NCBI GenBank assembly: GCA_028282585.1
Contig: JANQHR010000126.1
Span: forward strand, 40,832 to 104,831
DNA length: 64,000 nt
Direction of reading: 5' to 3'
From: Bacteroidales bacterium
GTDB lineage: Bacteria > Bacteroidota > Bacteroidia > Bacteroidales > UBA12077
Below, one piece after another: positions 1,861 to 15,753 of the stretch. The number at the start of each line of letters is the position of its first letter. The first letter of the stretch is position 1. The notes below the pieces were generated by a model, which searched no databases, was not told the DNA's origin, and saw only the letters and a list, made by a program, of their open reading frames with translations. The translations under genes were made by a program, and so were the position numbers.

Positions 1861-4800
1861 ATGAAAAATTTCCGTTTATACAATATTGTTGTTGGCTGGA
1901 TTTCATTCTTAATAGCTGCAATTGTTTATATGCTAACCATTGAACCAACTGCCAGTTTTTGGGATTGTGGAGAGTTTATAGCATCTGCATATAAATTAGA
2001 GATTGGTCACCCTCCTGGCGCACCGTTTTTTATGATATTAGGTAGGTTTTTTACAATTTTTACAGGATCTCCGGAAAATGCTGCAAAAATGGTTAATATA
2101 TTATCAGGGTTGGCTAGTGCCTTTACAATATTGTTCTTATTTTGGACAATCACTCATTTTGTTCGTAAAATTGTTATTAAAGCTGATAAAGATTATAGCA
2201 CCGGGAATATTATAACTATTTTAGGTAGTGGATTGGTTGGTGCATTAGCTTATACTTTTTCAGATACTTTTTGGTTTTCAGCTGTTGAAGCAGAAGTTTA
2301 TGCAACATCTTCATTATTTACTGCAGTAGTTTTCTGGGCAATTTTAAAATGGGAAAATGAATCGGACAGAAAATATGCTAATCGCTGGATTATTTTAATT
2401 GCTTATCTGATTGGACTTTCAATTGGTGTTCACCTGTTAAATTTATTGGCGATTCCCGCAATAGTTTTTGTTTATTATTTTAAAAAATACCCGGTAACTA
2501 AAAAAGGAGTATTTTATGCATTATTAATTTCCGGAATTTTATTAGGATCAATCATGTATATATTGATACCAGGCATTGTAAAAGTAGCATCTTGGTTCGA
2601 TTTGTTATTTGTAAATGGATTTGGATTACCATTTAATTCGGGAACAATATTTTACGTAGCTGTTTTAATTTCATTGATTATTTGGGGAATAAAATATACT
2701 CAGCGAAAAGGTAAAGTTGTATTTAATACCATAATTTTGGGAATGACAGTAGTTTTAATAGGATACTCGTCTTACGCAATGATTATTATTCGATCATCTG
2801 CTGATCCACCAATGGATCAAAATAATCCTGATAATGCTTTTGACTTACTTTATTATTTAAATCGGGAACAATATGGAGATAGACCTTTATTTTATGGTCA
2901 GACTTTTGATGCTCCCATGGTTGATAATAAAAAAACAAAGCCTGTCTACATAAAAAAAGGAGGTAAATATATTATAGCAGATCATAAAATTGAAGTTGAA
3001 TATGATGATCGATTTACTACGTTATTTCCAAGAATGTATAGTCCGGATAATAATCATGTAAATGAATATAAAAAGTGGTCAAATCTTGATGGAGATGAAA
3101 TTACAGTTAATTCAAGAGGAGGTCAGGTAGAGAAAAGGATTAAACCTTCTTTTGGAGATAATATAGGATTCTTTATTAGATATCAGGTTGGCCATATGTA
3201 TTTTAGATATTTTATGTGGAATTTCGCCGGGCGACAAAATGATATTCAAGGGCATGGAAATGTTTTAAAAGGAAATTGGTTAAGTGGAATTCCATTTATT
3301 GATAATGCAAGATTAGGAGATCAGGATTTGGTTCCCGAGCATTTGAAAAATAACCCTGCAAGAAATGAATATTTTATGCTCCCATTTATATTAGGATTAG
3401 TTGGATTATTTTTTCATTACAAAAAGCAAAAATATGATTTTACAATAGTGCTAATGTTGTTTATTCTAACAGGTTTGGCAATTGTTGTTTATTTGAATCA
3501 GTATCCGTTACAACCACGCGAACGGGATTATGCCTATGCAGGATCGTTTTATGCATTTTCAATTTGGCTGGGTTTAGGAGTTGCAGGATTAATTGATTTA
3601 TTAAGTAAAAAGGCTCCAAAGGTAATGTCTGCCTCTTTAGTTACTTTAATAACCTTAATATTGGTACCTGGAATAATGGCATCTGAGAATTGGGATGATC
3701 ATGATAGATCAGGACGTTATACCGCAAGAGATATGGCATATAATTACCTTAACTCATGTAAGGAGAATGCTATCTTATTTACAAATGGCGATAATGATAC
3801 GTTTCCGCTTTGGTATGCTCAAGAAGTGGAAGGCATAAGAACAGACATAAAGGTTTGTAATCTGAGTTATTTACGCGCAGCTTGGTATATAGATCAAATG
3901 AGCAGAAAATCATATGAATCGGAAAAACTTCCATTTTCATTAACTTATGAACAATACCATAAAGGGAATCGCGATATTTTGCCAATTTACGATAGAGTAG
4001 GACAGGCAGTTGATGTAAAAGATGTAATGGAATTTATTGCAAGTGATGATCCAAAAACTAAAATTAAATCACCTTTTGTCGCAAATGAAACAATTAATTA
4101 CATCCCAACTGATAAGTTTAAACTGCAGATAAATGCTGAAGATGTGTTGAAAAAGGGTATTGTAAGTGAAAAATACGCAGATAGAATTGAAGATAAAATG
4201 GAATGGAGTTTTGGTCAGCGATATTTATATAAAGACGGATTAATGCTACTTGATATGTTAGCAACAAATAATTGGGAGAGACCAATTTATTGGGCAATGA
4301 CTGTTTCAAGTTCAAAGTATTTTAACCTGCAAAAGTATTTTAAAGTTGATGGGCTAACTTATCAGCTAGTGCCAGTATTGGCTGAGAATGAAAGATTTTA
4401 CAGCGGAGAAGTAGATTCGGATGTAATGTATGATAATATAATGAATAAATTTCGTTGGGGTGGAATAGAAGAAAATGATATTTATTTTGACGAAAATAAC
4501 ATTCGAATGTTTTCTAATTTAAGAAGTAGTTTTGGTCGTTTAGCAGAAAAATTAATTAAAGAAAATAAGAGAGATTCTGCACTAAGAGTTCTTGATCGAT
4601 GTATGGAGCTGTTTCCTGATCATAAAATACCTTACAATAATACTTTGATTTCAGTAATTTCAGCGTATTATCATGCAGAAGCATATGAAACCGCAGATGA
4701 TTTGGTACAGAAGCTTTCGGATAAAGTAAGTGTAGAATTAGACTATTATTTTAGTTTAGATCCGAAATACATGATAGGAACTAAAGACATGTCAAAAGAA

Positions 4801-4926
4801 AAACAATTAAATTTATATATTCTACAGGAGCTATATAAAATTACCGCTGATAATAATCAAATTGAAAAGGCAAAGGATATTGAATTAAGGTTTATGAATT
4901 ATATGCAGTTATATAATAGTTATTAA
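1861..4926 (+). CDS. DUF2723 / TMEM260-like GT-C membrane glycosyltransferase
   Basis: SFWDCGEFIA, HPPGAP, SAVEAEVYA, PRERDY, FTNGDNDTFPLWY motifs; many TM helices. Confidence 0.88.
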   Translation: MKNFRLYNIVVGWISFLIAAIVYMLTIEPTASFWDCGEFIASAYKLEIGHPPGAPFFMILGRFFTIFTGSPENAAKMVNILSGLASAFTILFLFWTITHFVRKIVIKADKDYSTGNIITILGSGLVGALAYTFSDTFWFSAVEAEVYATSSLFTAVVFWAILKWENESDRKYANRWIILIAYLIGLSIGVHLLNLLAIPAIVFVYYFKKYPVTKKGVFYALLISGILLGSIMYILIPGIVKVASWFDLLFVNGFGLPFNSGTIFYVAVLISLIIWGIKYTQRKGKVVFNTIILGMTVVLIGYSSYAMIIIRSSADPPMDQNNPDNAFDLLYYLNREQYGDRPLFYGQTFDAPMVDNKKTKPVYIKKGGKYIIADHKIEVEYDDRFTTLFPRMYSPDNNHVNEYKKWSNLDGDEITVNSRGGQVEKRIKPSFGDNIGFFIRYQVGHMYFRYFMWNFAGRQNDIQGHGNVLKGNWLSGIPFIDNARLGDQDLVPEHLKNNPARNEYFMLPFILGLVGLFFHYKKQKYDFTIVLMLFILTGLAIVVYLNQYPLQPRERDYAYAGSFYAFSIWLGLGVAGLIDLLSKKAPKVMSASLVTLITLILVPGIMASENWDDHDRSGRYTARDMAYNYLNSCKENAILFTNGDNDTFPLWYAQEVEGIRTDIKVCNLSYLRAAWYIDQMSRKSYESEKLPFSLTYEQYHKGNRDILPIYDRVGQAVDVKDVMEFIASDDPKTKIKSPFVANETINYIPTDKFKLQINAEDVLKKGIVSEKYADRIEDKMEWSFGQRYLYKDGLMLLDMLATNNWERPIYWAMTVSSSKYFNLQKYFKVDGLTYQLVPVLAENERFYSGEVDSDVMYDNIMNKFRWGGIEENDIYFDENNIRMFSNLRSSFGRLAEKLIKENKRDSALRVLDRCMELFPDHKIPYNNTLISVISAYYHAEAYETADDLVQKLSDKVSVELDYYFSLDPKYMIGTKDMSKEKQLNLYILQELYKITADNNQIEKAKDIELRFMNYMQLYNSY

Positions 4927-5547
4927 ATGTTAAAAAAAGAACATATTGCAGCAAAAATTCTTAGAGATTTAACCTGGCATTTTGCAGGAAAAGACAATGA
5001 ACTTTTCTTAACTTTTGATGATGGCCCTTCTCCTGAGATTACTCCATGGGTGCTATCTATATTAGCGGAGTATGACGCAAAGGCAACTTTTTTTTGTATA
5101 GGAGGCAAAGTAGATAGAAATCCGAGTTTGTATGAACAAATATTGAAAGAAGGACATTCCGTAGGAAACCATGGATATTTGCACATGAATGGATGGAGAA
5201 CAGGAACCGATAAGTATGTTAGAAATGTTTACAGAGCAGCACATTTTATAAATTCGGATTTATTCAGGCCTCCTTATGGGAGGATTCGTCCAAAACAAAT
5301 TACTCAATTAAAAAAAGAGTTTAGAATTGTAATGTGGGATGTACTATCAGGTGATTACGATAAAAAAGTTAATGAAGTAAGGTGTTTGTACAATGTTCTA
5401 TCTTATGCCGAATCAGGATCAATCATTGTTTTTCATGACAATATGAAGTCTGAGAAAAACCTAAAGTATGTTTTACCAAAAGTGCTTGAGCATTTTACGA
5501 AAAAAGATTTTATATTTAATTCAATAGAGTATAAAAAAATAGATTAA
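4927..5547 (+). CDS. Polysaccharide deacetylase (CE4/NodB)
   Basis: LTFDDGP, GNHGYLH, FRPPYG, IIVFHD motifs. Confidence 0.93.
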   Translation: MLKKEHIAAKILRDLTWHFAGKDNELFLTFDDGPSPEITPWVLSILAEYDAKATFFCIGGKVDRNPSLYEQILKEGHSVGNHGYLHMNGWRTGTDKYVRNVYRAAHFINSDLFRPPYGRIRPKQITQLKKEFRIVMWDVLSGDYDKKVNEVRCLYNVLSYAESGSIIVFHDNMKSEKNLKYVLPKVLEHFTKKDFIFNSIEYKKID

Positions 5548-6713
5548 GATCTTTTATTAAAAAGGAACTTATAAATTAACAAAAAAGGTCTTAAAAAATA
5601 ATAAATAAAAAATAGAGAGTCTTTTATTTTTACTATTTCCCAATCAGACAGATGTGTTCTAAGTCGAAACAATAAATCCAGATAATATTTAGAATCTTTT
5701 TTAAGTTTTAGTCTGTAAAAAACAAACTTCAGTTTTCCTAAGATATTTTTTTGACTAATATCTTTGGTGTTTATAGAGTTTAAAGGCATTCTTATTAAGG
5801 CAGGTTTTATATTAAATTCGATAAAATTTATCTCTTTAGTATGATATATCTTATTCGAAAGCATACAAGCCTGAATAAATGTTTTATCTAGTTTTAATTT
5901 CTTAGATAGGTCGAAAGCAGATTTTAATTCATTTTCATTGCTTTTTGTAATTGAAACAGAAAAATCTTTTAACCAAAATAATCTATACCATTGATGAATA
6001 CTTCCATGCGCAGCCTGATAAACTAAGTTTTCAGTTTTAGAGATATAAGGTAATTTGTAATTTGAAACCTTCAGGTTTTGTTTGTTAGAGATGATATTAT
6101 TTGTTTCTAATCCTAAAAATGATTTAGGGTTAGTCATATTCCAATGCAGTTCAATTTCAATTCCTTGAATTGAATGGACAAAATGATAATGATGACTTAT
6201 GCCATAATTGATTTTTTTTTGTTTTTCTGTTAATTTTATAGAAGGATAGACACAGATAAAATTAAAGTCTTCAATGATTTTTTTTGCTCTTTCAGTATCG
6301 CTGTTTTTTACTAAAACATCAATATCCCTGAAATTTCTAAAACCGATATCATTGTATAAATCGATTGAAAGCAATGGACCTTTAAAGAAACAGTGCTCTA
6401 TATTTTGTTTATTAAATTCCTCATGAATCCTTATCGCATGTATCGCAAAATTTAAAGCACGTTTTGAGTGTTCTAACCGGATTTCTATTAATTTTTCGTA
6501 AACAGGGATAGGTATTTTTTCTGCTAAAAAAGTAGAATGTTTTAATATATGTGATATGACTCTGTGTTTAATGGCAAGCTCAAAAAAGTCATCCCAATCA
6601 ATTTTGGAAAGATCTAATTGATAGTCACTCTCTAATTTATTTTGTGTAAGGTAAATTATAAGTTTGAGTTCTTCTGAAAATTTTGAACTCATATAGCTTT
6701 TTATTTTATTCAT
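5544..6713 (-). CDS. Nucleotidyltransferase (NTP_transf_5 family), lasso-cluster tailoring enzyme
   Basis: FFKGPLL, RNFRDIDVLV, IEIELHW, HGSIH.W.RLFWLKD motifs; start overlaps the cyclase stop region. Confidence 0.85.
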   Translation of the reverse strand: MNKIKSYMSSKFSEELKLIIYLTQNKLESDYQLDLSKIDWDDFFELAIKHRVISHILKHSTFLAEKIPIPVYEKLIEIRLEHSKRALNFAIHAIRIHEEFNKQNIEHCFFKGPLLSIDLYNDIGFRNFRDIDVLVKNSDTERAKKIIEDFNFICVYPSIKLTEKQKKINYGISHHYHFVHSIQGIEIELHWNMTNPKSFLGLETNNIISNKQNLKVSNYKLPYISKTENLVYQAAHGSIHQWYRLFWLKDFSVSITKSNENELKSAFDLSKKLKLDKTFIQACMLSNKIYHTKEINFIEFNIKPALIRMPLNSINTKDISQKNILGKLKFVFYRLKLKKDSKYYLDLLFRLRTHLSDWEIVKIKDSLFFIYYFLRPFLLIYKFLFNKRS

Positions 6714-8578
6714 TTAAACATGGTTGGATTATTTTCAATAAACAGAATTAATTTTAAATAGTTATAAAATGCTCCGGGGTTTATATCCCGATATTTTTTT
6801 TCTGATCTTTTACGTAATTTATTAAACCATTGTTCGTATTTATTTACATCAATATATTGGGTAATTAATTTATTTGATTTTGCCCTTGTAATAATTTCAA
6901 GAATTTGTTCCGAATCATTCATCATTCGCATATGAACAGTAGGAATTGTTGCCCCACTTTTATCATTTCTCCATTGAATTTTTTCAGGAACTATTCCTTC
7001 AAGTGATCTTCGAATCAGGTATCTGCCGATTCCGTTTCTAGCTTTCAACCTGGTTGGAACGGATAAATAATATTCGATTAAACGGATATCAAGTAATGGA
7101 TATCTATATTCGATACCATAGTTTCTTGCTATCAAAGAACAATATTCAAGACGCTGTGATACATGCTGATGTGTAATTCTTTCAATATTTCTTTGTTGTA
7201 GTCCGGTTATATTTAATTTTTGATAATTAGAATAATATCTTTCCTTTATTTTATGTTTTTCTAAAAAAAATGGATTGATTGCCAGGTTTTTAAATTTATA
7301 AGTCCACCAGGGTTTTTTAAATTTTAGTTTTAAAAGAATCGGGAAACGGGATTTTAAAAAAACTTTAAGATACCTTTTTAGATAATTTAAATAATTGGGA
7401 TATTGATTTTTGAGATCAACCTTAAGTTCTTTCCATTTTTTATTTGCAGCCAATTCATTTAAATATCCCGAAGATTTTGAGGTAACTACTTCATCGCCAC
7501 CAAATCCAGAAAGTAAAACAGTTATATTTTCTTGCTTTGCTTTTTCGTATAACTGATCAGAAAATACACCAAAATTTTGCTGAAACAAACTTCTGGTCTC
7601 ACTTACATTTTGTTTTAATGTTTTGAGTAAAGATTTCTCTGATGTTATAAAATTTCGATTCTCTATTTTACTATAATTCGCTAATAGATTTATAAAATCC
7701 CGTTCATCTTTAAAGGGATGAATTTTTCCAAATAAATGGTCTGGTAAAACATGAGAAAATGATTTAACTGGAAGAAAGTTTGAGGCTATAGCCATAACAC
7801 AAGATGAGTCAATTCCACCGCTTAATTCTGCGCCAACCGATTCCACGTATTTGGTTCTGCAACTAACAGATTCAAATAGCAAGTGTTTAAAATCGTTAAT
7901 TATATCAACATCTTTTTTTTGAACTTCCCTTTTAGTGTTTAGTACCCAATATGATTTTATATCGAGCTTATTATTTTTTAATATAAGAATGTGTGCCGGA
8001 GGTAATTTCTTAACTTCGGCATAAGTTGTTCGGAATTTTTCCGATTTTACAATAGAAATTGTATCGGCGACTTGTTGATTGTCAATTGAAAAAACAAGAT
8101 CGGTTTGTTCTAAAATGCTAGCGACATCGGTTGAAAAAACAAATGAGTCTTTATTAAAATAATAATGAAAGGGTTTTATTCCCAAATGATCACGAGCACA
8201 GAAAAGCTCTTCGTTTTTTGAATCCCAGATCGCGAAAGCAAAATCACCGATTAGGTAATTTACGCATTTATTTCCCCATTTTATATATGCTTCTAAAATG
8301 ATAAAATCATCACTGAGGCCTTTATTAATTTCTAAATCTCTGATGATTTCATTTCTATTGTAAATAACAGAATCAGAAACCAGGATAAAACCTGCATAAT
8401 TTAAAATGGGTTGGTTTTCAAAAGGTGGGAAAAGTACTAGCCCAAAACCAGAGTGATTTTCTAGTGTAAATTGAGATTTATTTTTTAAATAAACGGTAAG
8501 TTTTTTGATACTTTTCTTAAAAAGCTCTTGGTTTATAGGTTCTGTGTTAACGTTTACTCTTCCAAATATAGACCGCAT
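6710..8578 (-). CDS. Lasso peptide cyclase (protein C; asparagine synthase-like)
   Basis: GDFAFAIWD, ARDHLGIKP, ELSGGIDSS (PP-loop), LSGFGGDE, YPLLD.RL; N-terminus MRSIFG lacks the AsnB catalytic Cys; clustered with B1/B2/precursor. Confidence 0.9.
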   Translation of the reverse strand: MRSIFGRVNVNTEPINQELFKKSIKKLTVYLKNKSQFTLENHSGFGLVLFPPFENQPILNYAGFILVSDSVIYNRNEIIRDLEINKGLSDDFIILEAYIKWGNKCVNYLIGDFAFAIWDSKNEELFCARDHLGIKPFHYYFNKDSFVFSTDVASILEQTDLVFSIDNQQVADTISIVKSEKFRTTYAEVKKLPPAHILILKNNKLDIKSYWVLNTKREVQKKDVDIINDFKHLLFESVSCRTKYVESVGAELSGGIDSSCVMAIASNFLPVKSFSHVLPDHLFGKIHPFKDERDFINLLANYSKIENRNFITSEKSLLKTLKQNVSETRSLFQQNFGVFSDQLYEKAKQENITVLLSGFGGDEVVTSKSSGYLNELAANKKWKELKVDLKNQYPNYLNYLKRYLKVFLKSRFPILLKLKFKKPWWTYKFKNLAINPFFLEKHKIKERYYSNYQKLNITGLQQRNIERITHQHVSQRLEYCSLIARNYGIEYRYPLLDIRLIEYYLSVPTRLKARNGIGRYLIRRSLEGIVPEKIQWRNDKSGATIPTVHMRMMNDSEQILEIITRAKSNKLITQYIDVNKYEQWFNKLRKRSEKKYRDINPGAFYNYLKLILFIENNPTMFK

Positions 8579-8592
8579 ATATTCGTTTTAAG

Positions 8593-8600
8593 CAAAGATA
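8593..8600 (-). promoter_or_regulatory. Putative Bacteroidota -7 promoter element for cyclase/nucleotidyltransferase
   Basis: TATCTTTG (TAnnTTTG) on minus strand 14 nt upstream of the cyclase ATG. Confidence 0.55.
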
Positions 8601-8657
8601 AGCAATTTACGCAAGTGTCTTTAAACAACTGAAAACAGGATTTTATCTGTTTTTCAA

Positions 8658-8665
8658 TAAATTTG
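8658..8665 (+). promoter_or_regulatory. Putative -7 promoter element for kinase-sulfotransferase-B1-B2 operon
   Basis: TAAATTTG 17 nt upstream of ATG 8683. Confidence 0.45.
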
Positions 8666-8682
8666 TGTTAGTTTGCACTAAA

Positions 8683-9579
8683 ATGAAAAAGAAATTTACA
8701 TATAAAGCATTTGGCTTAATTTTTAACTCGGATTTTGAAATTCCGGAACTCTTAACCGGATCAGGCGATACTGGCATAAAAATCGAGTTGGGGAAGACTC
8801 CAAATCAACTTCAAAAAATTACTAATAAAGGAGTAAAATATGAAGCAACTAAAAATGAATTTTTGCTTCAGGTTGATCACATAGCAAGATATTATGTTCA
8901 AGACGGCGAGAAAATAACCATAGAATTATTAAAAGATAAAGTTGATAAAGAAGTTAGGTTGTTTTTGTTAGGTTCTGCATTTGGTTCTCTTTTTCTTCAA
9001 AGGGGATTGCTGCCGATCCATGGGAGTAGTATTAAGTTCAAAAACTTTGCAACTATATTTACAGGCTTAAGCGGTGTTGGAAAATCAACTATAGCGGCAC
9101 ATTTTGTTAAACTATCTTATCAGGCTTTGGCAGATGACATTAGTGTTATAAATCACCAATTGCAAGTTGCGCCTGGTTTTCCAAGTTTGAAAATATGGAA
9201 TGATGTTTTGGAAAAATTGGAAATTGACAGTGAAAAATTAAATCAAATAAGGCCAAATTTTAAAAAGTTTCGTGTACCGGTTAATGAGCAATATTATTCC
9301 GAACCAGTTCCATTGAAAAATATCGTGATTCTTAGCACAAAAAACTCTCCGGGATTTGAAATCGAGGAGTTAAACGGAATTAAAAAGTTTACTGCAATCA
9401 AGAATAATACCTATCGATATCGATTTGTTCAGGGGCTTGAAAAACAACTGGATCATTTTCAGATTCTTGATAAGCTCTTGCCGAAAATAAAGGTTTATAA
9501 AGTTTCAAAACCACAGGCCCCATTATTGTTAGATGAATTAGGTGATTTTTTATTACAGAAAATTGAATTAAATGTCTAA
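8683..9579 (+). CDS. HPr-kinase-like lasso peptide kinase (PadeK-like); start moved to ATG 8683
   Basis: YKAFGL N-terminus, LLPIHGSSI, Walker A GLSGVGKST, LADD motif. Confidence 0.87.
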   Translation: MKKKFTYKAFGLIFNSDFEIPELLTGSGDTGIKIELGKTPNQLQKITNKGVKYEATKNEFLLQVDHIARYYVQDGEKITIELLKDKVDKEVRLFLLGSAFGSLFLQRGLLPIHGSSIKFKNFATIFTGLSGVGKSTIAAHFVKLSYQALADDISVINHQLQVAPGFPSLKIWNDVLEKLEIDSEKLNQIRPNFKKFRVPVNEQYYSEPVPLKNIVILSTKNSPGFEIEELNGIKKFTAIKNNTYRYRFVQGLEKQLDHFQILDKLLPKIKVYKVSKPQAPLLLDELGDFLLQKIELNV

Positions 9580-10438
9580 GAAAAATATCATATGGTTGGC
9601 TAGTTATCCGAAATCGGGAAATACTTGGTTTCGTATTTTTCTTACTAATTTGTTATACGAATCAGATGATCCTGCGAATATCAATGATTTAGCTGAAACC
9701 TCCATTTCCAGTTCGCGAAAGATATTTGATGAATACACAGGCCTTTCATCTTCCGATTTAACTTTTGAGGAAATTGATACATTACGTCCTTATGTTTATC
9801 GTATACAATCAGAGGAAAGCAATGAGCTATTGTTTAAAAAAGCTCATGATAAGTTTTATAATGTGAATAAAAATCAACCCTTGTTTCCACCGGAAGTTTC
9901 AAAAGGAGTCATTTATTTTATTCGTAATCCATTGGACGTATTAGTTTCTTTTGCATATCACAGTGCTAAACCTATTTCAAGAATGCTACCTTCACTAAAT
10001 AATTCAAAATATGAATTTTGTGGAAGAGATAACAAATTACAAAATCAGTTAAGGCAAATACTAGGAAGCTGGTCTGGTCACGTTTGTAGTTGGATCAACC
10101 AGGATTTAATTCCGATTCATATCATGAGGTATGAAGATATGATCAATGATACTTTTAATACGTTTAAACATGCCGTACAATTTATTGGATTGAAAAAAAC
10201 GGATAAACAAATAAAAACGGCCTTGGCAAAAAGTAGTTTTTCAGTTTTATCGAAACAGGAAAAAAAGGATGGTTTTAGGGAAAAAATGATTCGCACAAAA
10301 TTTTTTTTTCGTAAAGGTCAAATAGGTGATTGGAAAAACCATTTAAGTGAACGGGAGGTAGAAAAAATTGTTTTAAACAATAAAGAAATTATGTTGAAAT
10401 TCAAATACTTGGACAGTAATTACAAACCTATATTTTAA
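9572..10438 (+). CDS. PAPS-dependent sulfotransferase (Sulfotransfer_1)
   Basis: WLASYPKSGNTW (5'-PSB), RNPLDVLVS (3'-PB), RYEDM, FFRKGQIGDWKN; overlaps kinase by 8 nt. Confidence 0.93.
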   Translation: MSKKNIIWLASYPKSGNTWFRIFLTNLLYESDDPANINDLAETSISSSRKIFDEYTGLSSSDLTFEEIDTLRPYVYRIQSEESNELLFKKAHDKFYNVNKNQPLFPPEVSKGVIYFIRNPLDVLVSFAYHSAKPISRMLPSLNNSKYEFCGRDNKLQNQLRQILGSWSGHVCSWINQDLIPIHIMRYEDMINDTFNTFKHAVQFIGLKKTDKQIKTALAKSSFSVLSKQEKKDGFREKMIRTKFFFRKGQIGDWKNHLSEREVEKIVLNNKEIMLKFKYLDSNYKPIF

Positions 10439-10439
10439 A

Positions 10440-10730
10440 ATGGTTAAAATAAAATTAACGGAAAATACTTTAATAAAGAGAAAGAATAGTATTCTAGCCA
10501 GTGATTTGGATGGGGAAAAGGTTATGATGAGTATCCAAAAAGGTGAGTATTATGGTTTAGGGAAAACGGGAACTTTTATTTGGGATCACATTGAAAATTA
10601 CATCTCAATTAGTGATTTAATAACTTTAATTACAGATAAGTATAATGTAAAGAAAGAGCAATGTTTAAAAGATATTATTCCTTTTATAACGGACCTTATT
10701 GAAAAAGAGCTTATTATTGCAACCAATTAG
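10440..10730 (+). CDS. Lasso peptide B1 / PqqD-family RiPP recognition element
   Basis: DLDGEKVMMSIQKGEYYGLGKTGTFIWDHI ... YNV..EQC..DI..FI..L....LI pattern. Confidence 0.93.
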   Translation: MVKIKLTENTLIKRKNSILASDLDGEKVMMSIQKGEYYGLGKTGTFIWDHIENYISISDLITLITDKYNVKKEQCLKDIIPFITDLIEKELIIATN

Positions 10731-10761
10731 AGTTTTTTTACGTTTAAACTTGTGAACACGA

Positions 10762-11202
10762 ATGATGTTCAAACAGATAAAGAAATATTGCAGCTTAGAT
10801 AAAACTGAACGTAAAATCTTGAATCGAACTTTTTTTTGGTTAATTTATGCTTTTGTACTGGTTCGATTAATACCTTTAAAATGGTTTAATTCAATTTTAG
10901 GGGAATATAACAACGTGGTTGAAGTAACTTTAAACACAAAACAACTACAGTTAATTTTTGTGGTTAAAAAAAATATAAGAAGAGTAAAAAAACATTTACC
11001 CTGGAAAGTTAAGTGTTTTGAAGAAGCAATAACAGCAAAAAAATTACTGGAAATGGTTAATATAAAATCAACACTTTACTTAGGAGTCAGAAAAGGGAGT
11101 AAACAGACCTTAAAAGCTCACGCCTGGTTGAAAAGTGGAGATAAATTTGTTAGTGGAGAAAAAGGATATAAAAGTTTTGTGACGGTTGGATTTTATACTT
11201 GA
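10762..11202 (+). CDS. Lasso peptide B2 leader peptidase (transglutaminase-like)
   Basis: KCFEEAITAKKLL (Cys), LYLGV, AHAWL (His) motifs. Confidence 0.92.
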   Translation: MMFKQIKKYCSLDKTERKILNRTFFWLIYAFVLVRLIPLKWFNSILGEYNNVVEVTLNTKQLQLIFVVKKNIRRVKKHLPWKVKCFEEAITAKKLLEMVNIKSTLYLGVRKGSKQTLKAHAWLKSGDKFVSGEKGYKSFVTVGFYT

Positions 11203-11228
11203 TTATATGACACTTATGGAAGATTATA

Positions 11229-11257
11229 AAATTTGCATTAAATTTGATTTAAATTTG
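11229..11257 (+). repeat. Three AAATTTG direct repeats with 11-bp period upstream of the lasso precursor
   Basis: AAATTTG at 11229, 11240, 11251; the last two copies are full TAAATTTG. Confidence 0.6.
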
Positions 11258-11268
11258 AAAAAAGTGAG

Positions 11269-11427
11269 ATGATGAAAGAAAAGAATGTAAATAAGGAAAC
11301 TAGTCAACCATGCAATAAACTTGAATGGGAAGCTCCAAGATTATATTGTTTAGATAAAGGAAAAACAGAAGGGGGAACCTTTAGCGGATATGCTGAAGGT
11401 GTAACATATAATGGTACAGCATCGTAA
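11269..11427 (+). CDS. Lasso peptide precursor (52 aa, not in ORF track): MMKEKNVNKETSQPCNKLEWEAPRLYCLDKGKTE-GGTFSGYAEGVTYNGTAS
   Basis: Hand-translated ATG 11269 (or 11272) to TAA 11427; WxxPxL leader motif, Thr at -2, Gly1, Glu9, C-terminal Ser; directly after B2. Confidence 0.92.
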   Translation: MMKEKNVNKETSQPCNKLEWEAPRLYCLDKGKTEGGTFSGYAEGVTYNGTAS

Positions 11428-11439
11428 ATTTGTTTTATA

Positions 11440-14400
11440 ATGAGAAAAGTTTTATATTTCTTAGGCATCATTCTTATTCCATTAAATTGTTTTAGTCAGG
11501 CATGGATTGTGTCTCAGCATCTAAAAAGTGATAATGATTTAAGAATCTTAGATATTAAAAAAGATGCTGGTAATAATGTTTATGTTACTGGTATTTTTAA
11601 AGGCACATATAATGGTAATACTTCTGAAGGTCTTTTTGATATATTTCTGGCAAAGTTTAATAGTGATTTAAATAAAGAGTGGATTCAAACGGTAGGAAGT
11701 TCATCTGTTGAATTCGACCCTAGGATTACTTTAGATGCAGCAAATAATATTTTTTTAACGGGCGCTTTTAGAGACAGCTGTGTTTTTGATGAAAATATAT
11801 ATTTAAAAAGTGACGGTAACTACGATATTTTTCTCGCAAAGTATTCGAATGTAGGAAATATTATATGGGCAAAAAATATTGCTAATTATCCAACGCAGCA
11901 AAATCCGACTGATATAGATGTTGATGGTAACAACGATCTAATAATAACAGGTCACTTTTCAGACTCTACGTATCTTATAAATCAAAAAATAGTTAGTTCA
12001 GGAAGGAATAGTTTTTTTGCAAAAATTGATACCAGTGGAACTAAAATTTGGGTTAATTATGTGCCAGGAAATAATATATCTTCAAGAATTAATAATATTA
12101 AAGTGTACCAAGATGAATATTATTTTAATGGGTACTTTAGAGATGAGATGTACTTTGATATTGAAACAATTACTAGCAATATACCAGGTCAACAGGATCT
12201 TTTTATTTATAAAACAGACATAAATGGCAATGGATTATGGATAAGAAGAACTTATGGTGATAATTTAGATGCTACTGGTTCTATTGCTGGAGATAATTAT
12301 GGTAATGTTTACTTTACAGGGTACTTTCAAAGCTCAACATTAGCGGTAGATTCAACTGATATTAGTTTATCTAGTCAGATTTTAACCAATAATAATGATT
12401 TTGATATTTTCATATTAAAGTACAATAAAAATGGTAACCTACAGTGGAATAAACAATTTGGACTAAATGGTCGTGATTACGGTGTTGATGTGAATGTCAA
12501 TAATGATATTTTATACATGTCAGGTTATTTTAGCGATACTATAGCTTTTGGTGAATATTCACTTGAATCGACAGGAACAGGGGATAGAGATATGTTTATA
12601 ACTGTTATGGATCTAAATGCGAAGACTTTTAATTCCATATCTCTGGGAGGGATTGATGGCAATGACCTTGCTGCTGGCGCTTTGGTTTTAGAAGACGGAG
12701 ATGCAATCATTAGTGGTTATTTTCAATCATCCAGTATTTCTGTTGGAGATAGCTTATTCATGAATGCTTCACCTGGTTTTAGGGATGGAATAGTTGCAGA
12801 ATATAGGCCACCATTATCTGCAGTTTTTTCAAACGTTGAAAATATTGCCTGTAATTCAGATAATGATGGAGAGCTTACAATAACTGCTGAGTTTGGACAA
12901 AAGCCTTATACGTATTCCTGGAGTCATGATGGAGGTTTAACCGATTCTACTGCAATAGGGCTTTCTGCTGCAACTTATACAGTTACAGTTACAGATGCTG
13001 TTGACTCAACGGCGGTGGTAAGTTACGATTTAACTGAACCGGATGAAATTACGTTTAATCCATTGGTTACCCAGGTAAGTCAATGCAGTTACTCAAAAGA
13101 AGGAGTTATTGATTTAAATGCAGCAGGAGGAAATGGAGGATATACATATCAATGGCAGGCGAGCGAAGGAGGAGATGGTATTGTGTTAAGCGCAGAAGAC
13201 CAATCAGGTTTAGCTATTGGTAGATACGATGTAACAATAACTGACACAGAATTATGTACAAATGATACTATAACTTACATTACCGGACCGGCACCAATTA
13301 CGTTTGGAGGTTCTGTTGTAACTGATTCTTCGGGGATAGGTCCCGGAGCTATTGATTTATCATATACTGGTGGATCTGGAAGTCCTGCTTCTTTTACATT
13401 TGATTGGATTGGCCCATCAGGTCCTCCAGCTACTCATTCTGAAGATACTTCCAACTTGAGTCCTGGAAATTATAGTGTTACTGTTACAGATGTTCATCTT
13501 TGTGAGTTTGATACAACCTTTAATGTTGCAAATTTGGATACATTTTATATATTTATTTCAGACCAAAAAGATGCTTGTTTAGGAACTATTAATGGTAATG
13601 CAACGGTTAGCTTTTCTTCACCTAAAGGACATACGTTAATTAACTATTTATGGGATGTAAATGCAGGAAGCCAAACAACGGCAAAAGCAACTAATTTAGC
13701 TCCCGGGAGATATTATAAAGTTACTGTTACTGATACTGAGAATACGCCGAATACAACTTTAGTTGATAGTGTATATATAGATGAGTTAATATATAATTTG
13801 GCAGGTTCATTGTCAGGTACAACAACACTGGATTGTTACGGTGATACGGATGGTTATATTGATTTAACCATAACCATAGCTGGAGAGTTGCCCTATACTT
13901 ATAATTGGAGTACAGGTTCAAACTTACAGGATATTACCGATCTTGGAATAGGAAATTATAGTGTTACAGTTACTGATGATAATGAGTGTACTTTTTCAAT
14001 TACAAACTATGCTATAAACCAGCCGGAACTTTTAACAGCTTCTGCTGAAATTATAAACGAACCTTCTTGTAACGGGGATTTTGATGGTGAAGTAACTGTT
14101 GATAGAAACGGAGGGACAGCACCTTACACGTACCAATGGGATGACCCCGGATTTCAAGATACCCGCAATGCAGATGGATTAGATGCTGGCTATTACACTG
14201 TAACTGTTACGGATGTAAATAATTGTATGACATTATCTGGAATTAATTTAACCGAACCAGATGTAGTTTCAATTAGTAAAGTAATAAGTGATGAGATATG
14301 TAATTCAGCAGGAGAAGGAGCAGTTACATTAACAACAACGGGAGGTACGGATCCTTTTGGCTATTCTTGGACTACAACTGATGGTTCAGGATTAATATCT

Positions 14401-15753
14401 TCTAATAAAAATCAGACCGGGCTTACAGCAGGGAAATATTATTTTACAGCAACCGATAATAATGGTTGTGCTTTTATGGATAGTGCTGAGATAACGGAAC
14501 CTGAATTACTTCAAATTACCAATGAATCCAAAACAGATGTGAATACCTGTAATGGTGATAACACTGGTACCATAACAATCGCAGCATCAGGAGGTACAGG
14601 TATTTTAACTTATACATTAAATCCTGGAAATATTCAAACAAATAATACAGGGGCATTTACAAGTCTTGGTGCTGGTAATTATACAGTAAATGTTGAAGAT
14701 GAAAATGCATGTGCAGTAGCTTCAAGTTCTCTGAGTATAGCAGAACCGGCTTTATTAATAATTACTAGGAATGATGTAAATGATGCAACTTGTTATGGAA
14801 TTAATAATGGGAATATTGACATTAATGTGTCCGGAGGAACAATTTCATCAGGATATACTTTTAATTGGACAACTTCGGATGGTTCTGGACTAGTTGCAGG
14901 TTCAGAAGATCAGCCAAGTTTAGGAAATGGGACCTATGATTTAACTGTAACTGATGATAATTTATGTTCGGATAATACAAGCTTTGTGTTAACAGAACCT
15001 GAAGCTATTATAGTTAATAAAACAGTGTATGAGCCATCATGCAATGATGATAATGATGGAACTGTAATAGTTACACATTCTGGAGGAACTTTACCTTTTT
15101 CGTATTTTTGGACAACAACAGATGGAAGTGGCTTAGATCCGGTTTATCGAAACCAAGGTGGATTAAGCCCGGGAACGTATTATTTAGAAATTACAGATGC
15201 TTTAGATTGTATAATTAACGAAGCTGTTACAATTACAGCGCCATCTATAATTACTATAGATTCTCAGAGCTCTACTGATGCAACCGATTTTAATACTGCT
15301 GACGGAACAATTTCAGTAACTGCATCCGGAGGTACAAGTACATTGACTTATGTATTAAGACCAGACGATATTTCGAACCAAACCGGTACTTTCAATTCAT
15401 TATTACCTGGTGAATATGTAATAGAAGTTGATGATATTTATTTTTGTGGACCAATAACAACAGATACTATTACTATTGGAGCAATTAATTCAGTTAATTT
15501 AATTTTTGCAGGAGATTTTATTAAAGTGTTTCCTAATCCAACATCAAGTAAAGTATTCGTGGAAATAGATATGAATGCTACCTTTAAATTAGAACTCGCT
15601 AGTATGTCTGGACAAATCTTATATCAGGATGAAATAATCACAAATGGATTTATGAAAGAAGAGATTGATCTTTCCTCATTTACAAAAGGGATTTATTTGC
15701 TGAGAATATATAATAATGAATATTACTTAACAGATAAGCTTATATTGCAGTGA
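11440..15753 (+). CDS. T9SS-secreted protein: SBBP-like beta-propeller repeats, SprB repeats, type A C-terminal sorting domain
   Basis: Signal peptide; repeated D.F..KY...G...W units; repeated GG..PYTY.W...L..G.YTVTVTD.N.C units; C-terminal VFPNPT...IDLS...KGIYLLRI...KLILQ. Confidence 0.9.
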   Translation: MRKVLYFLGIILIPLNCFSQAWIVSQHLKSDNDLRILDIKKDAGNNVYVTGIFKGTYNGNTSEGLFDIFLAKFNSDLNKEWIQTVGSSSVEFDPRITLDAANNIFLTGAFRDSCVFDENIYLKSDGNYDIFLAKYSNVGNIIWAKNIANYPTQQNPTDIDVDGNNDLIITGHFSDSTYLINQKIVSSGRNSFFAKIDTSGTKIWVNYVPGNNISSRINNIKVYQDEYYFNGYFRDEMYFDIETITSNIPGQQDLFIYKTDINGNGLWIRRTYGDNLDATGSIAGDNYGNVYFTGYFQSSTLAVDSTDISLSSQILTNNNDFDIFILKYNKNGNLQWNKQFGLNGRDYGVDVNVNNDILYMSGYFSDTIAFGEYSLESTGTGDRDMFITVMDLNAKTFNSISLGGIDGNDLAAGALVLEDGDAIISGYFQSSSISVGDSLFMNASPGFRDGIVAEYRPPLSAVFSNVENIACNSDNDGELTITAEFGQKPYTYSWSHDGGLTDSTAIGLSAATYTVTVTDAVDSTAVVSYDLTEPDEITFNPLVTQVSQCSYSKEGVIDLNAAGGNGGYTYQWQASEGGDGIVLSAEDQSGLAIGRYDVTITDTELCTNDTITYITGPAPITFGGSVVTDSSGIGPGAIDLSYTGGSGSPASFTFDWIGPSGPPATHSEDTSNLSPGNYSVTVTDVHLCEFDTTFNVANLDTFYIFISDQKDACLGTINGNATVSFSSPKGHTLINYLWDVNAGSQTTAKATNLAPGRYYKVTVTDTENTPNTTLVDSVYIDELIYNLAGSLSGTTTLDCYGDTDGYIDLTITIAGELPYTYNWSTGSNLQDITDLGIGNYSVTVTDDNECTFSITNYAINQPELLTASAEIINEPSCNGDFDGEVTVDRNGGTAPYTYQWDDPGFQDTRNADGLDAGYYTVTVTDVNNCMTLSGINLTEPDVVSISKVISDEICNSAGEGAVTLTTTGGTDPFGYSWTTTDGSGLISSNKNQTGLTAGKYYFTATDNNGCAFMDSAEITEPELLQITNESKTDVNTCNGDNTGTITIAASGGTGILTYTLNPGNIQTNNTGAFTSLGAGNYTVNVEDENACAVASSSLSIAEPALLIITRNDVNDATCYGINNGNIDINVSGGTISSGYTFNWTTSDGSGLVAGSEDQPSLGNGTYDLTVTDDNLCSDNTSFVLTEPEAIIVNKTVYEPSCNDDNDGTVIVTHSGGTLPFSYFWTTTDGSGLDPVYRNQGGLSPGTYYLEITDALDCIINEAVTITAPSIITIDSQSSTDATDFNTADGTISVTASGGTSTLTYVLRPDDISNQTGTFNSLLPGEYVIEVDDIYFCGPITTDTITIGAINSVNLIFAGDFIKVFPNPTSSKVFVEIDMNATFKLELASMSGQILYQDEIITNGFMKEEIDLSSFTKGIYLLRIYNNEYYLTDKLILQ

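What the first reader, a model, noticed from the sequence alone, without database searches (positions are those of the whole stretch)
5544..11427. Complete Bacteroidota lasso-peptide cluster carrying kinase, nucleotidyltransferase and sulfotransferase
Seen: cyclase (SGGIDSS, no N-terminal Cys), PqqD-type B1, Cys/His B2 peptidase, a precursor, and three tailoring genes in a divergent arrangement. Known: Firmicutes paeninodin/pseudomycoidin clusters encode an HPr-like kinase and a nucleotidyltransferase that act on the C-terminal Ser. Inference: this is a paeninodin-like pathway in a Bacteroidales-type genome making a multiply modified lasso peptide. I know of no characterised product with this core, but I cannot search to confirm that.
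Basis: partly seen in the sequence, partly recalled or inferred. Interest (0 to 1): 0.9.

Follow-up and report, generated by a model that had tools for sequence, protein, structure and literature searches.

The report
Lasso-peptide cluster with paired kinase–sulfotransferase
This is an intact gene cluster for a knotted ("lasso") peptide in a marine Bacteroidota genome; its type is already known and common, but its kinase and sulfotransferase look like one two-enzyme unit whose chemistry nobody has yet worked out.

Summary
Window 5544-11427 holds seven intact genes: NTP_transf_5 nucleotidyltransferase and lasso cyclase on the minus strand; HPr-kinase-like kinase, Sulfotransfer_1 sulfotransferase (ST), PqqD-type B1, B2 peptidase and a 52-aa precursor ending in Ser on the plus strand.

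The paeninodin/pseudomycoidin-type reading holds, but the cluster is not rare.
- Both congeneric genomes carry a syntenic copy with the same leader and a different core.
- 36 of 300 other sampled genomes of the same order have a close ST homologue.
- Among the 80 best ST loci from many phyla, 77 have the kinase, and it lies directly upstream in 72 of those 77.
- A review already records kinase, nucleotidyltransferase and putative ST in Firmicutes clusters (PMC8498205).

I rate it a new member of a known kind.

ST depends on the kinase but not the reverse. 12 of 14 long ST homologues are kinase-ST fusions. A complex model scores 0.92 against a best control of 0.00 and places the ST acceptor loops on the kinase catalytic cleft. 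I found no held paper that characterises a lasso ST. The product remains unproven. Interest 0.45.

The parts
5544..6713 (-). NTP_transf_5 nucleotidyltransferase (PsmN-like), 389 aa. Its start overlaps the cyclase stop by 4 nt.
   Evidence: PF14907, E 9.7e-46, 156.8 bits. A G..DID motif (FRDIDVLV) is visible in the translation. No PDB sequence relative was found.
6710..8578 (-). Lasso macrolactam synthetase (C), 622 aa, Asn-synthetase-like, without the N-terminal Cys nucleophile.
   Evidence: PF00733 and GATase_7. Best NCBIfam family is NF033535 at 385.7 bits, below its cut-off of 525. SGGIDSS is present and the N-terminus reads MRSIFG. The paralogue on C91 starts MCGIVG.
8579..8682 (.). Divergent intergenic region between the cyclase and the kinase. 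It holds TAAATTTG at 8658-8665, a possible Bacteroidota -7 promoter box.
   Evidence: Sequence read; motif positions. The motif count over the whole window equals chance (17 found, 16.97 expected), so this is only a hint. The TAnnTTTG consensus is recalled, not taken from a call.
8683..9579 (+). HPr-kinase-like lasso peptide kinase (K). The listed ORF starts at GTG 8665; ATG 8683 is the likelier start, giving 298 aa.
   Evidence: Weak PF07475 (E 4.7e-5) and TIGR00679 hits, both below cut-off. P-loop GLSGVGKS and the LADD motif are visible. Homologues sit in lasso clusters. Relatives start at the equivalent Met, MxxxYxAFGL.
9572..10438 (+). PAPS-type sulfotransferase (ST), 288 aa. Its start overlaps the kinase stop by 8 nt.
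   Evidence: PF00685, E 6.2e-28. YPKSGNTW, the R118/S126 positions, FFRKGxxGxW and K90/H92 are invariant among relatives. PDB relatives are cytosolic SULTs and Teg12/Teg14/StaL.
10440..10730 (+). B1, a PqqD-type RiPP recognition element, 96 aa.
   Evidence: PF05402, E 1.4e-15. NF033536 lasso_PqqD_Bac, 96.3 bits against a cut-off of 80.
10762..11202 (+). B2, a transglutaminase-like Cys leader peptidase, 146 aa.
   Evidence: PF13471, E 8.2e-17. NF033537, 72.3 bits against a cut-off of 33. Cys (VKCFEEA) and His (KAHAWL) are visible in the translation.
11269..11370 (+). Precursor leader, residues 1-34, ending ...KLEWEAPRLYCLDKGKTE.
   Evidence: The leader is invariant from W20 to E34 across 4 precursors apart from R24, which is Lys in two rows. 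The same KLEWExPxLxxLDKGKTE leader occurs in both congeners. TAAATTTG occurs twice just upstream, at 11239 and 11250.
11371..11427 (+). Predicted core GGTFSGYAEGVTYNGTAS plus the stop codon. The ring runs from Gly1 (or Gly2) to Glu43 of the precursor. The C-terminal Ser52 is the expected kinase site.
   Evidence: G35, G36, E43, Y41, Y47 and S52 are invariant in A1. Cleavage after Glu34 or after Gly35 is inferred and not resolved.

Best explanation
This is a functional class II, split-B lasso-peptide cluster of the paeninodin/pseudomycoidin type. B1 binds the conserved WEAPxL leader. B2 cuts at the KTE|GG junction. The cyclase joins the new N-terminal Gly to Glu43, giving an 8- or 9-residue ring, with Tyr47 as a likely plug. 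Tailoring centres on the C-terminal Ser52. The kinase phosphorylates its side chain on the linear precursor, as shown for PadeK and PsmK. The NTP_transf_5 enzyme may add hexose to that phosphate, as PsmN does. The sulfotransferase works as a physical partner of the kinase and puts a sulfuryl group from PAPS on or next to the same residue. Shown here: gene content, conservation, kinase-ST linkage, kinase-ST fusions, and a predicted kinase-ST complex. Inferred: every chemical step and the product.
For: Gene families: with B1 and B2 above NCBIfam cut-offs. Cyclase versus AsnB. Precursor: leader and G35/G36/E43/S52 are invariant in 4 of 4 homologues. Both congeners keep the leader, vary the core and end in Ser.

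In a census blind to the last residue, 38 of 75 candidate precursors in ST loci end in Ser, against 797 of 7891 small ORFs.

ST depends on the kinase. The kinase is present in 77 of 80 ST loci, and the 3 misses have ST at or within 430 nt of a contig edge. The kinase lies directly upstream in 72 of 77. In the window, stop and start overlap by 8 nt. The kinase does not depend on ST. Only G000 and G383, of the 38 kinase-positive genomes among 401 sampled in the phylum, have ST beside the kinase. ST is present in 1 of 20 fetched kinase loci.

Fusions: 12 of 14 long ST homologues are kinase-ST fusions, 7 in ST-K order and 5 in K-ST order.

Complex model: score 0.92 in 3 of 3 runs, best of 3 controls 0.00. 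That mark was reached by 58 of 80 solved complexes and 2 of 110 mismatched pairs; these counts hold only roughly because my own alignments were used. Partner pLDDT is at least 86 and contacts agree at 93% or more. The interface is the kinase P-loop 129-133, D152, W172-D174 and R190-K195 against ST loops 49-62 and 152-158. The PDB relatives of the kinase and of the ST share no entry, so a pass from memory of a solved complex is unlikely.

PAPS supply: an APS kinase gene is in the genome. Enzymology of relatives: passages in PMC8498205 and PMC6993621.
Against: There is no product and no expression data. The kinase's Pfam and NCBIfam matches are below cut-off. The cyclase is below the NF033535 cut-off. 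No direct comparison with PadeK, PsmK or PsmN sequences was possible.

The cleavage site is ambiguous. The congener G503 has no Asp or Glu at core positions 7-9 if cut after Thr-Glu, with Glu at 10, but has Glu9 if cut one residue later.

Not all plausible precursors in ST loci end in Ser; examples are L060, L062, L082, L083, L089, L090 and L098. The 'same residue' idea is therefore not universal.

The ST loci were chosen by ST similarity and the kinase-only loci come from one phylum. On the quick kinase tree, ST-linked and ST-free kinases are interspersed, needing at least 4 changes. Interface positions outside the catalytic residues are only modestly more conserved in ST-linked kinases. The ST resembles phenol- and peptide-sulfating enzymes, which would also fit Tyr sulfation. 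No exporter or immunity gene was found nearby.
Confidence: 0.8

Rival explanations
1. The sulfotransferase acts independently of the kinase's chemistry and O-sulfates a core Tyr (Tyr41 or Tyr47), as phenol and glycopeptide sulfotransferases do. The kinase-ST contact would then be only a scaffold.
For: Y41 and Y47 are invariant in the 4 close precursors. PDB relatives include phenol SULTs and the peptide sulfotransferases Teg12, Teg14 and StaL.
Against: Tyr is present in only 23 of 38 Ser-ending candidate cores from ST loci. Tyr47 could be conserved simply as the steric plug. The modelled interface puts the ST acceptor loops on the kinase catalytic cleft.
Confidence: 0.25
2. The kinase-ST pair serves a different co-located peptide or a non-peptide substrate, and the lasso genes are only neighbours. 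HprK-like kinase plus NTP transferase also define a non-lasso RiPP family in Bacillota.
For: PMC13381572 (passages) reports HprK-like kinase and NTP transferase as the core of the LPP family, with only about a third of those clusters linked to lasso genes. In 5 of 80 ST loci only the kinase and ST were found; two of these, L059 and L118, have full 10-kb flanks.
Against: 75 of 80 ST loci have at least one of cyclase, B1 or B2. One ST-cyclase fusion exists, P0133. In the window and its congeners K, ST, B1, B2 and A form one tight same-strand run. No second precursor-like ORF was seen in the window's cluster.
Confidence: 0.07
3. The cluster is silent or decayed and makes no product in its host.
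For: No evidence from any call supports this. It stands only because neither expression nor a product has been observed.
Against: All seven ORFs are intact. Catalytic motifs are present. The cluster is conserved with a varying core in 3 of 3 genomes of the genus, counting the window's own, which is the pattern of a RiPP under selection.
Confidence: 0.1

Closest known systems
Paeninodin (Paenibacillus dendritiformis C454; PadeK kinase)
   Same: Split B1/B2, an Asn-synthetase-like cyclase, an HPr-kinase-like kinase, and a precursor ending in Ser that is phosphorylated on the linear precursor (PMC8498205 passages).
   Different: It is from a different phylum and has an unrelated core. The pade cluster has an ABC exporter and lacks the NTase (PMC6993621). 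Here there is no exporter, and both an NTase and an ST are present. No sequence comparison with PadeK was possible.
Pseudomycoidin (Bacillus pseudomycoides; PsmK and PsmN)
   Same: A kinase plus an uncharacterised NTP transferase. Phosphate goes on the C-terminal Ser, and PsmN-dependent hexose goes on that phosphate (PMC6993621 passages). The window's NTase has a comparable DxD motif.
   Different: The psm cluster has no sulfotransferase and does have an ABC transporter. In psm the NTase sits after B2; here it is coupled to the cyclase on the other strand.
Firmicutes lasso clusters with putative sulfotransferase and nucleotidyltransferase (Zhu et al. 2016, as summarised in PMC8498205)
   Same: The same trio of accessory gene families beside lasso genes.
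   Different: Those genes are only annotated there, and the ST function was left open. The kinase-ST linkage, the fusions and the predicted complex are not mentioned in the passages I read. The primary paper is not held.
Polyphosphorylated proteobacterial lasso peptides (Sphingobium yanoikuyae type)
   Same: The kinase adds further phosphates onto the first phosphate of the C-terminal Ser. This shows that the phosphate oxygen can act as an acceptor in this enzyme family.
   Different: No ST is described in the passages read, and the cluster organisation differs.
Glycopeptide sulfotransferases Teg12, Teg14 and StaL, and cytosolic SULTs
   Same: The same Sulfotransfer_1 fold family and PAPS-binding motifs.
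   Different: Those enzymes are stand-alone and act on phenols. This clade is tied to a P-loop kinase by adjacency, fusion and a predicted interface.

Membership tests
Lasso peptide biosynthetic cluster (split-B type) | Asn-synthetase-like macrolactam synthetase lacking the glutaminase Cys2 | tested here: met
   PF00733. NF033535 is the best NCBIfam family at 385.7 bits, though below its 525 cut-off. The N-terminus reads MRSIFG, whereas the C91 paralogue starts MCGIVG.
Lasso peptide biosynthetic cluster (split-B type) | PqqD-like RRE (B1) and transglutaminase-like Cys peptidase (B2) | tested here: met
   NF033536 at 96.3 bits against a cut-off of 80. NF033537 at 72.3 bits against a cut-off of 33. 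Cys and His are visible in B2.
Lasso peptide biosynthetic cluster (split-B type) | Short precursor with a recognition leader, Thr at -2, a small residue at core position 1, and Asp or Glu at core positions 7-9 | tested here: met
   The junction reads WEAPRL...KTE|GGTFSGYAE, giving Glu at position 9, or at 8 if cut one residue later. The exact cut site is ambiguous.
Lasso peptide biosynthetic cluster (split-B type) | Threaded macrolactam product | not testable with these tools
   This needs expression followed by MS or NMR.
Paeninodin/pseudomycoidin-type (kinase-tailored) lasso clusters | HPr-kinase-like kinase in the cluster | tested here: inconclusive
   PF07475 (E 4.7e-5) and TIGR00679 hits are below cut-off. 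The P-loop and DD motif are present. Homologues lie in lasso clusters in 16 of 20 Bacteroidota kinase loci. No direct comparison with PadeK or PsmK was possible.
Paeninodin/pseudomycoidin-type (kinase-tailored) lasso clusters | Precursor ends in Ser, the phosphorylation site | tested here: met
   S52 is invariant in 4 of 4 homologues and is present in both congeners.
Paeninodin/pseudomycoidin-type (kinase-tailored) lasso clusters | PsmN-like NTP transferase (pseudomycoidin subtype) | tested here: met
   PF14907, E 9.7e-46. That PsmN itself belongs to this Pfam family is recalled, not tested.
Paeninodin/pseudomycoidin-type (kinase-tailored) lasso clusters | ABC exporter (D) in the cluster. This is usual but not defining. 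| tested here: not met
   The neighbours are a TMEM260-like protein, a polysaccharide deacetylase and a SprB/T9SS protein. ORFs beyond 15.8 kb were not scanned.
PAPS-dependent Sulfotransfer_1 enzymes | 5'-PSB loop, 3'-PB residues and a catalytic His, plus a PAPS supply | tested here: met
   PF00685 at 98.3 bits against a cut-off of 22. YPKSGNTW, R118, S126, H92 and RxGxxGxW are invariant. An APS kinase gene is in the genome. The assignment of these motifs to PAPS binding is recalled.
True asparagine synthetase B | N-terminal Cys nucleophile, and a score above the TIGR01536 cut-off | tested here: not met
   There is no Cys2. TIGR01536 scores 238 against a cut-off of 267.1.

The most novel reading that the evidence does not exclude
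The kinase and the sulfotransferase form an obligate heterodimer, fused into one protein in some organisms, with facing active sites. Together they would build a modification not yet known on any peptide. The kinase phosphorylates the C-terminal Ser. The ST then transfers sulfate from PAPS onto that phosphate, giving a serine O-phosphosulfate. This would parallel the polyphosphate and phospho-hexose caps already known in this family. The same module would operate in lasso clusters of a dozen phyla.
Probability: 0.2. Interest if true: 0.8.

Novelty: new member of a known kind. Interest (0 to 1): 0.45.

Why it matters
I found no characterised lasso peptide from Bacteroidota in the held literature, and none carrying sulfate. 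This cluster is compact and intact, has three natural core variants within one genus, and could serve as a test case. Its wider value lies in the kinase-ST module rather than in this window. The conserved adjacency, the fusions in both orders and the confident predicted interface make a concrete, testable proposal for the ST that was noted in these clusters as early as 2014. If the pair makes a new C-terminal modification, that adds a tailoring tool for lasso-peptide engineering.

Tried and rejected
Cyclase as a true AsnB: rejected.

Tyr as the universal ST acceptor: not supported, because Tyr is present in only 23 of 38 Ser-ending cores.

ST-linked kinases as one clade: not supported. The quick tree needs at least 4 changes, the careful search did not finish, and sampling was biased.

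Interface-specific conservation in ST-linked kinases: only a modest difference.

Promoter and terminator scan: fewer sigma-70-like sites than in shuffles, and terminators at chance. TAAATTTG occurs at chance frequency over the whole window.

Expression: no RNA holder was listed. The only holder is a DNA run that may be the source of the assembly.

PDB sequence searches: only marginal HPrK hits for the kinase and none for the NTase.

Literature: searches found no paper on a Bacteroidota kinase-type lasso peptide or on a lasso sulfotransferase. Searches used min_terms 2 and returned mostly off-topic papers. For PMC8498205, PMC4289311, PMC7533575, PMC9576775, PMC8831229, PMC13381572 and PMC6993621 I read 'find' passages only. 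Tietz 2017 and Zhu 2016 (JBC) are not held, and the Zhu 2016 FEBS Lett paper was not looked up. These papers, and the closed supplements, may already list Bacteroidetes clusters or kinase-ST co-occurrence. What I say about them beyond the passages cited is recalled.

Full report
WHAT IS THERE. Window 5544-11427 contains seven uninterrupted ORFs.

On the minus strand:
- A 389-aa NTP_transf_5 protein at 5544-6713 (PF14907, E 9.7e-46).
- A 622-aa Asn-synthetase-like protein at 6710-8578 (PF00733, GATase_7). Its best NCBIfam family is the lasso cyclase NF033535 at 385.7 bits. That is below the model's 525 cut-off but well above AsnB TIGR01536 at 238.

On the plus strand:
- An HPr-kinase-like protein at 8665/8683-9579. 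Its family hits are weak and below cut-off, but the P-loop GLSGVGKS and a DD motif are present.
- A Sulfotransfer_1 protein at 9572-10438 (E 6.2e-28).
- A PqqD-type B1 at 10440-10730 (NF033536, above cut-off).
- A B2 peptidase at 10762-11202 (NF033537, above cut-off).
- A 52-aa ORF at 11269-11427 with no family match.

The cyclase has SGGIDSS and starts MRSIFG. The genome's only other relative, on contig C91, starts MCGIVG and so looks like a true AsnB. NTase and cyclase overlap by 4 nt. Kinase and ST overlap by 8 nt. The flanking genes are a TMEM260-like membrane protein and a polysaccharide deacetylase upstream, and a SprB-repeat T9SS protein downstream. None of these is an exporter.

THE PRECURSOR. 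Three metagenome homologues share an invariant stretch, WEAPxLYCLDKGKTEGGT, together with Y41, E43, Y47 and the last residue S52. Both other genomes of the same genus carry the whole cluster in the same order. Their protein identities to the window's genes are 47-74% for the enzymes and about 50% for the precursor. Their precursors keep the leader KLEWExPxLxxLDKGKTE. Their cores differ (GGPVADTESYTGDLS and GGDTRDPAGEDSTYLS), and both end in Ser. A conserved leader with a variable core is the usual signature of a RiPP precursor. With Thr at -2, the window's core is GGTFSGYAEGVTYNGTAS with a Gly1-Glu9 ring. The G503 core then has Glu only at position 10. A cut one residue later would give rings of 8, 7 and 9 in the three species, so I leave the ring size in the window as 8 or 9.

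HOW COMMON IT IS. Kinase homologues occur in 38 of 401 sampled Bacteroidota genomes. Of 20 fetched kinase loci, 16 have a lasso cyclase within 20 kb, most of them with B1, B2 or the NTase as well. The ST sits beside the kinase in only two of those 401 genomes, the window's own and G383. G383 also has the NTase.

That sample holds few genomes of the window's own order. In a sample of 300 other genomes of that order, 36 have an ST homologue at E <= 1e-30, with 35-69% identity. The protein database holds 5860 homologues at E <= 1e-20. The 120 listed are 52% identical or better, and the named ones among them are labelled Bacteroidales or Bacteroidota MAGs.

A scan of species-representative genomes with an ST alignment gave 578 relatives. 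The 80 kept come from Bacteroidota, Thermodesulfobacteriota, Myxococcota, Chloroflexota, Acidobacteriota, Cyanobacteriota, Verrucomicrobiota, Gemmatimonadota, Actinomycetota, Bacillota, Pseudomonadota and others. The nearest is a Marinilabiliales MAG, with ST 85%, kinase 70% and cyclase 59% identical. The 'Bacteroidales-type' guess is therefore reasonable. The only public run holding this DNA is labelled a coral metagenome.

THE KINASE-ST LINK. Among the 80 ST loci:
- 77 have the kinase. The three without it have ST at or within 430 nt of a contig end.
- 58 have the cyclase.
- 32 have the NTase.
- 75 have at least one of cyclase, B1 or B2.

The kinase ends within -100 to +150 nt of the ST start, on the same strand, in 72 of 77. 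Of the 14 ST homologues longer than 504 residues, 12 are kinase-ST fusions (7 in ST-K order, 5 in K-ST order). One is a tandem ST and one is an ST-cyclase fusion.

A complex prediction with alignments of 17 kinases and 16 STs scored 0.92 in all three runs, against 0.00 for the best of three controls. That mark was reached by 58 of 80 solved complexes and 2 of 110 mismatched pairs; the counts hold only roughly because my own alignments were used. Partner pLDDT was at least 86 and contact agreement at least 93%. The model supports binding but does not show it. The PDB relatives of the two proteins share no entry, so a pass from memory of a solved complex is unlikely.

The modelled interface uses the kinase P-loop (129-133), D152, W172-D174 and R190-K195, most of which are invariant. 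On the ST side it uses loops 49-62 and 152-158. By position relative to the PAPS motifs and His92 these are acceptor-side loops; that assignment rests on my knowledge of SULT structures and not on a call. The PAPS-binding motifs are invariant, and the genome encodes an APS kinase.

WHAT THE ST MODIFIES. In a census whose criterion ignores the last residue, 75 candidate precursors were found in 51 of 80 loci. Of these, 38 end in Ser, against 10.1% of all small ORFs. Tyr is present in only 23 of those 38 cores. The C-terminal Ser is therefore the most widely shared feature of the substrates. Together with the asymmetric dependence (ST needs the kinase, but the kinase does not need ST) and the facing active sites, this points to ST acting on or beside the kinase's product.

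There are caveats. Several plausible precursors in ST loci do not end in Ser. The loci were selected by ST similarity. ST-linked and ST-free kinases are interspersed on a quick tree. Non-catalytic interface positions are only modestly more conserved in ST-linked kinases.

COMPARISON WITH WHAT IS KNOWN. Passages in PMC8498205 and PMC6993621 state the following.
- PsmN is required for one or two hexoses on that phosphate.
- Some Firmicutes clusters carry a putative sulfotransferase and a nucleotidyltransferase of unknown role.

PMC4289311 noted an HPr kinase and a sulfotransferase in anaerobe lasso clusters in 2014. PMC13381572 shows that HprK-like kinase plus NTP transferase also define a non-lasso RiPP family. 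PMC7533575 cites Tietz 2017 for Bacteroidetes as an underexplored source of lasso peptides. Of the 18 held papers that contain both 'lasso peptide' and 'sulfotransferase', none of the 16 listed characterises such an enzyme, judging by title and abstract. The primary papers by Zhu 2016 and Tietz 2017 are not held and supplements are closed. They may contain more than I could see.

VERDICT. This is a real, intact lasso-peptide cluster of a known tailoring type, and a new member rather than a new kind. It is not rare, either in its order or across bacteria. The kinase-ST pairing is the one feature worth following, and any member of the family could be used to test it. Interest 0.45.

Noticed in passing
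L034 (G383:C44) 3006-6463 and 10677-12491: The second Bacteroidota kinase/ST/NTase lasso cluster has extra genes. Three phage-tail-collar-domain proteins, a formyltransferase and a methyltransferase sit between B2 and the cyclase. A 2OG-Fe(II) oxygenase and a GT2 sit beside the kinase.
   Followed up: partly
L083, L089, L093, L098, L130: These ST loci carry two paralogous kinases each, which form two sister clades on the tree. Candidate precursors found in three of them (L083, L089, L098) end in Pro, Asn, Thr or Pro rather than Ser; none was listed for L093 or L130.
   Followed up: no
L088 13654-14567: Four tandem precursor genes with Cys-rich cores, all ending in Ser, lie in an Anaerolineales MAG.
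   Followed up: no
L116 7367-8269: The kinase reading frame beside an intact ST has three internal stop codons, so it may be a pseudogene or an assembly error.
   Followed up: no
P0133 and P0132: P0133 (897 aa) is a natural fusion of the ST with an Asn-synthetase-like cyclase. P0132 (589 aa) is a tandem ST-ST protein.
   Followed up: partly
window 8658, 11142, 11239, 11250, 11425 (+ strand): Five of the window's 17 TAAATTTG copies lie on the plus strand within the cluster. Four sit just upstream of start codons: one before the kinase, two before the precursor and one before the SprB gene. The window-wide count equals chance.
   Followed up: partly
window 11440-15753 (+): A 1437-aa SprB-repeat protein with a T9SS sorting domain starts 13 nt after the precursor's stop codon. 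Whether it is co-transcribed is unknown.
   Followed up: no
window 1861-5547 (+): A TMEM260-like O-mannosyltransferase-family membrane protein (1021 aa) is followed directly by a polysaccharide deacetylase. The deacetylase's end overlaps the NTase's end.
   Followed up: no
L059 and L118: These kinase-ST pairs have full 10-kb flanks but no detectable cyclase, B1 or B2. The module may also serve non-lasso peptides.
   Followed up: no
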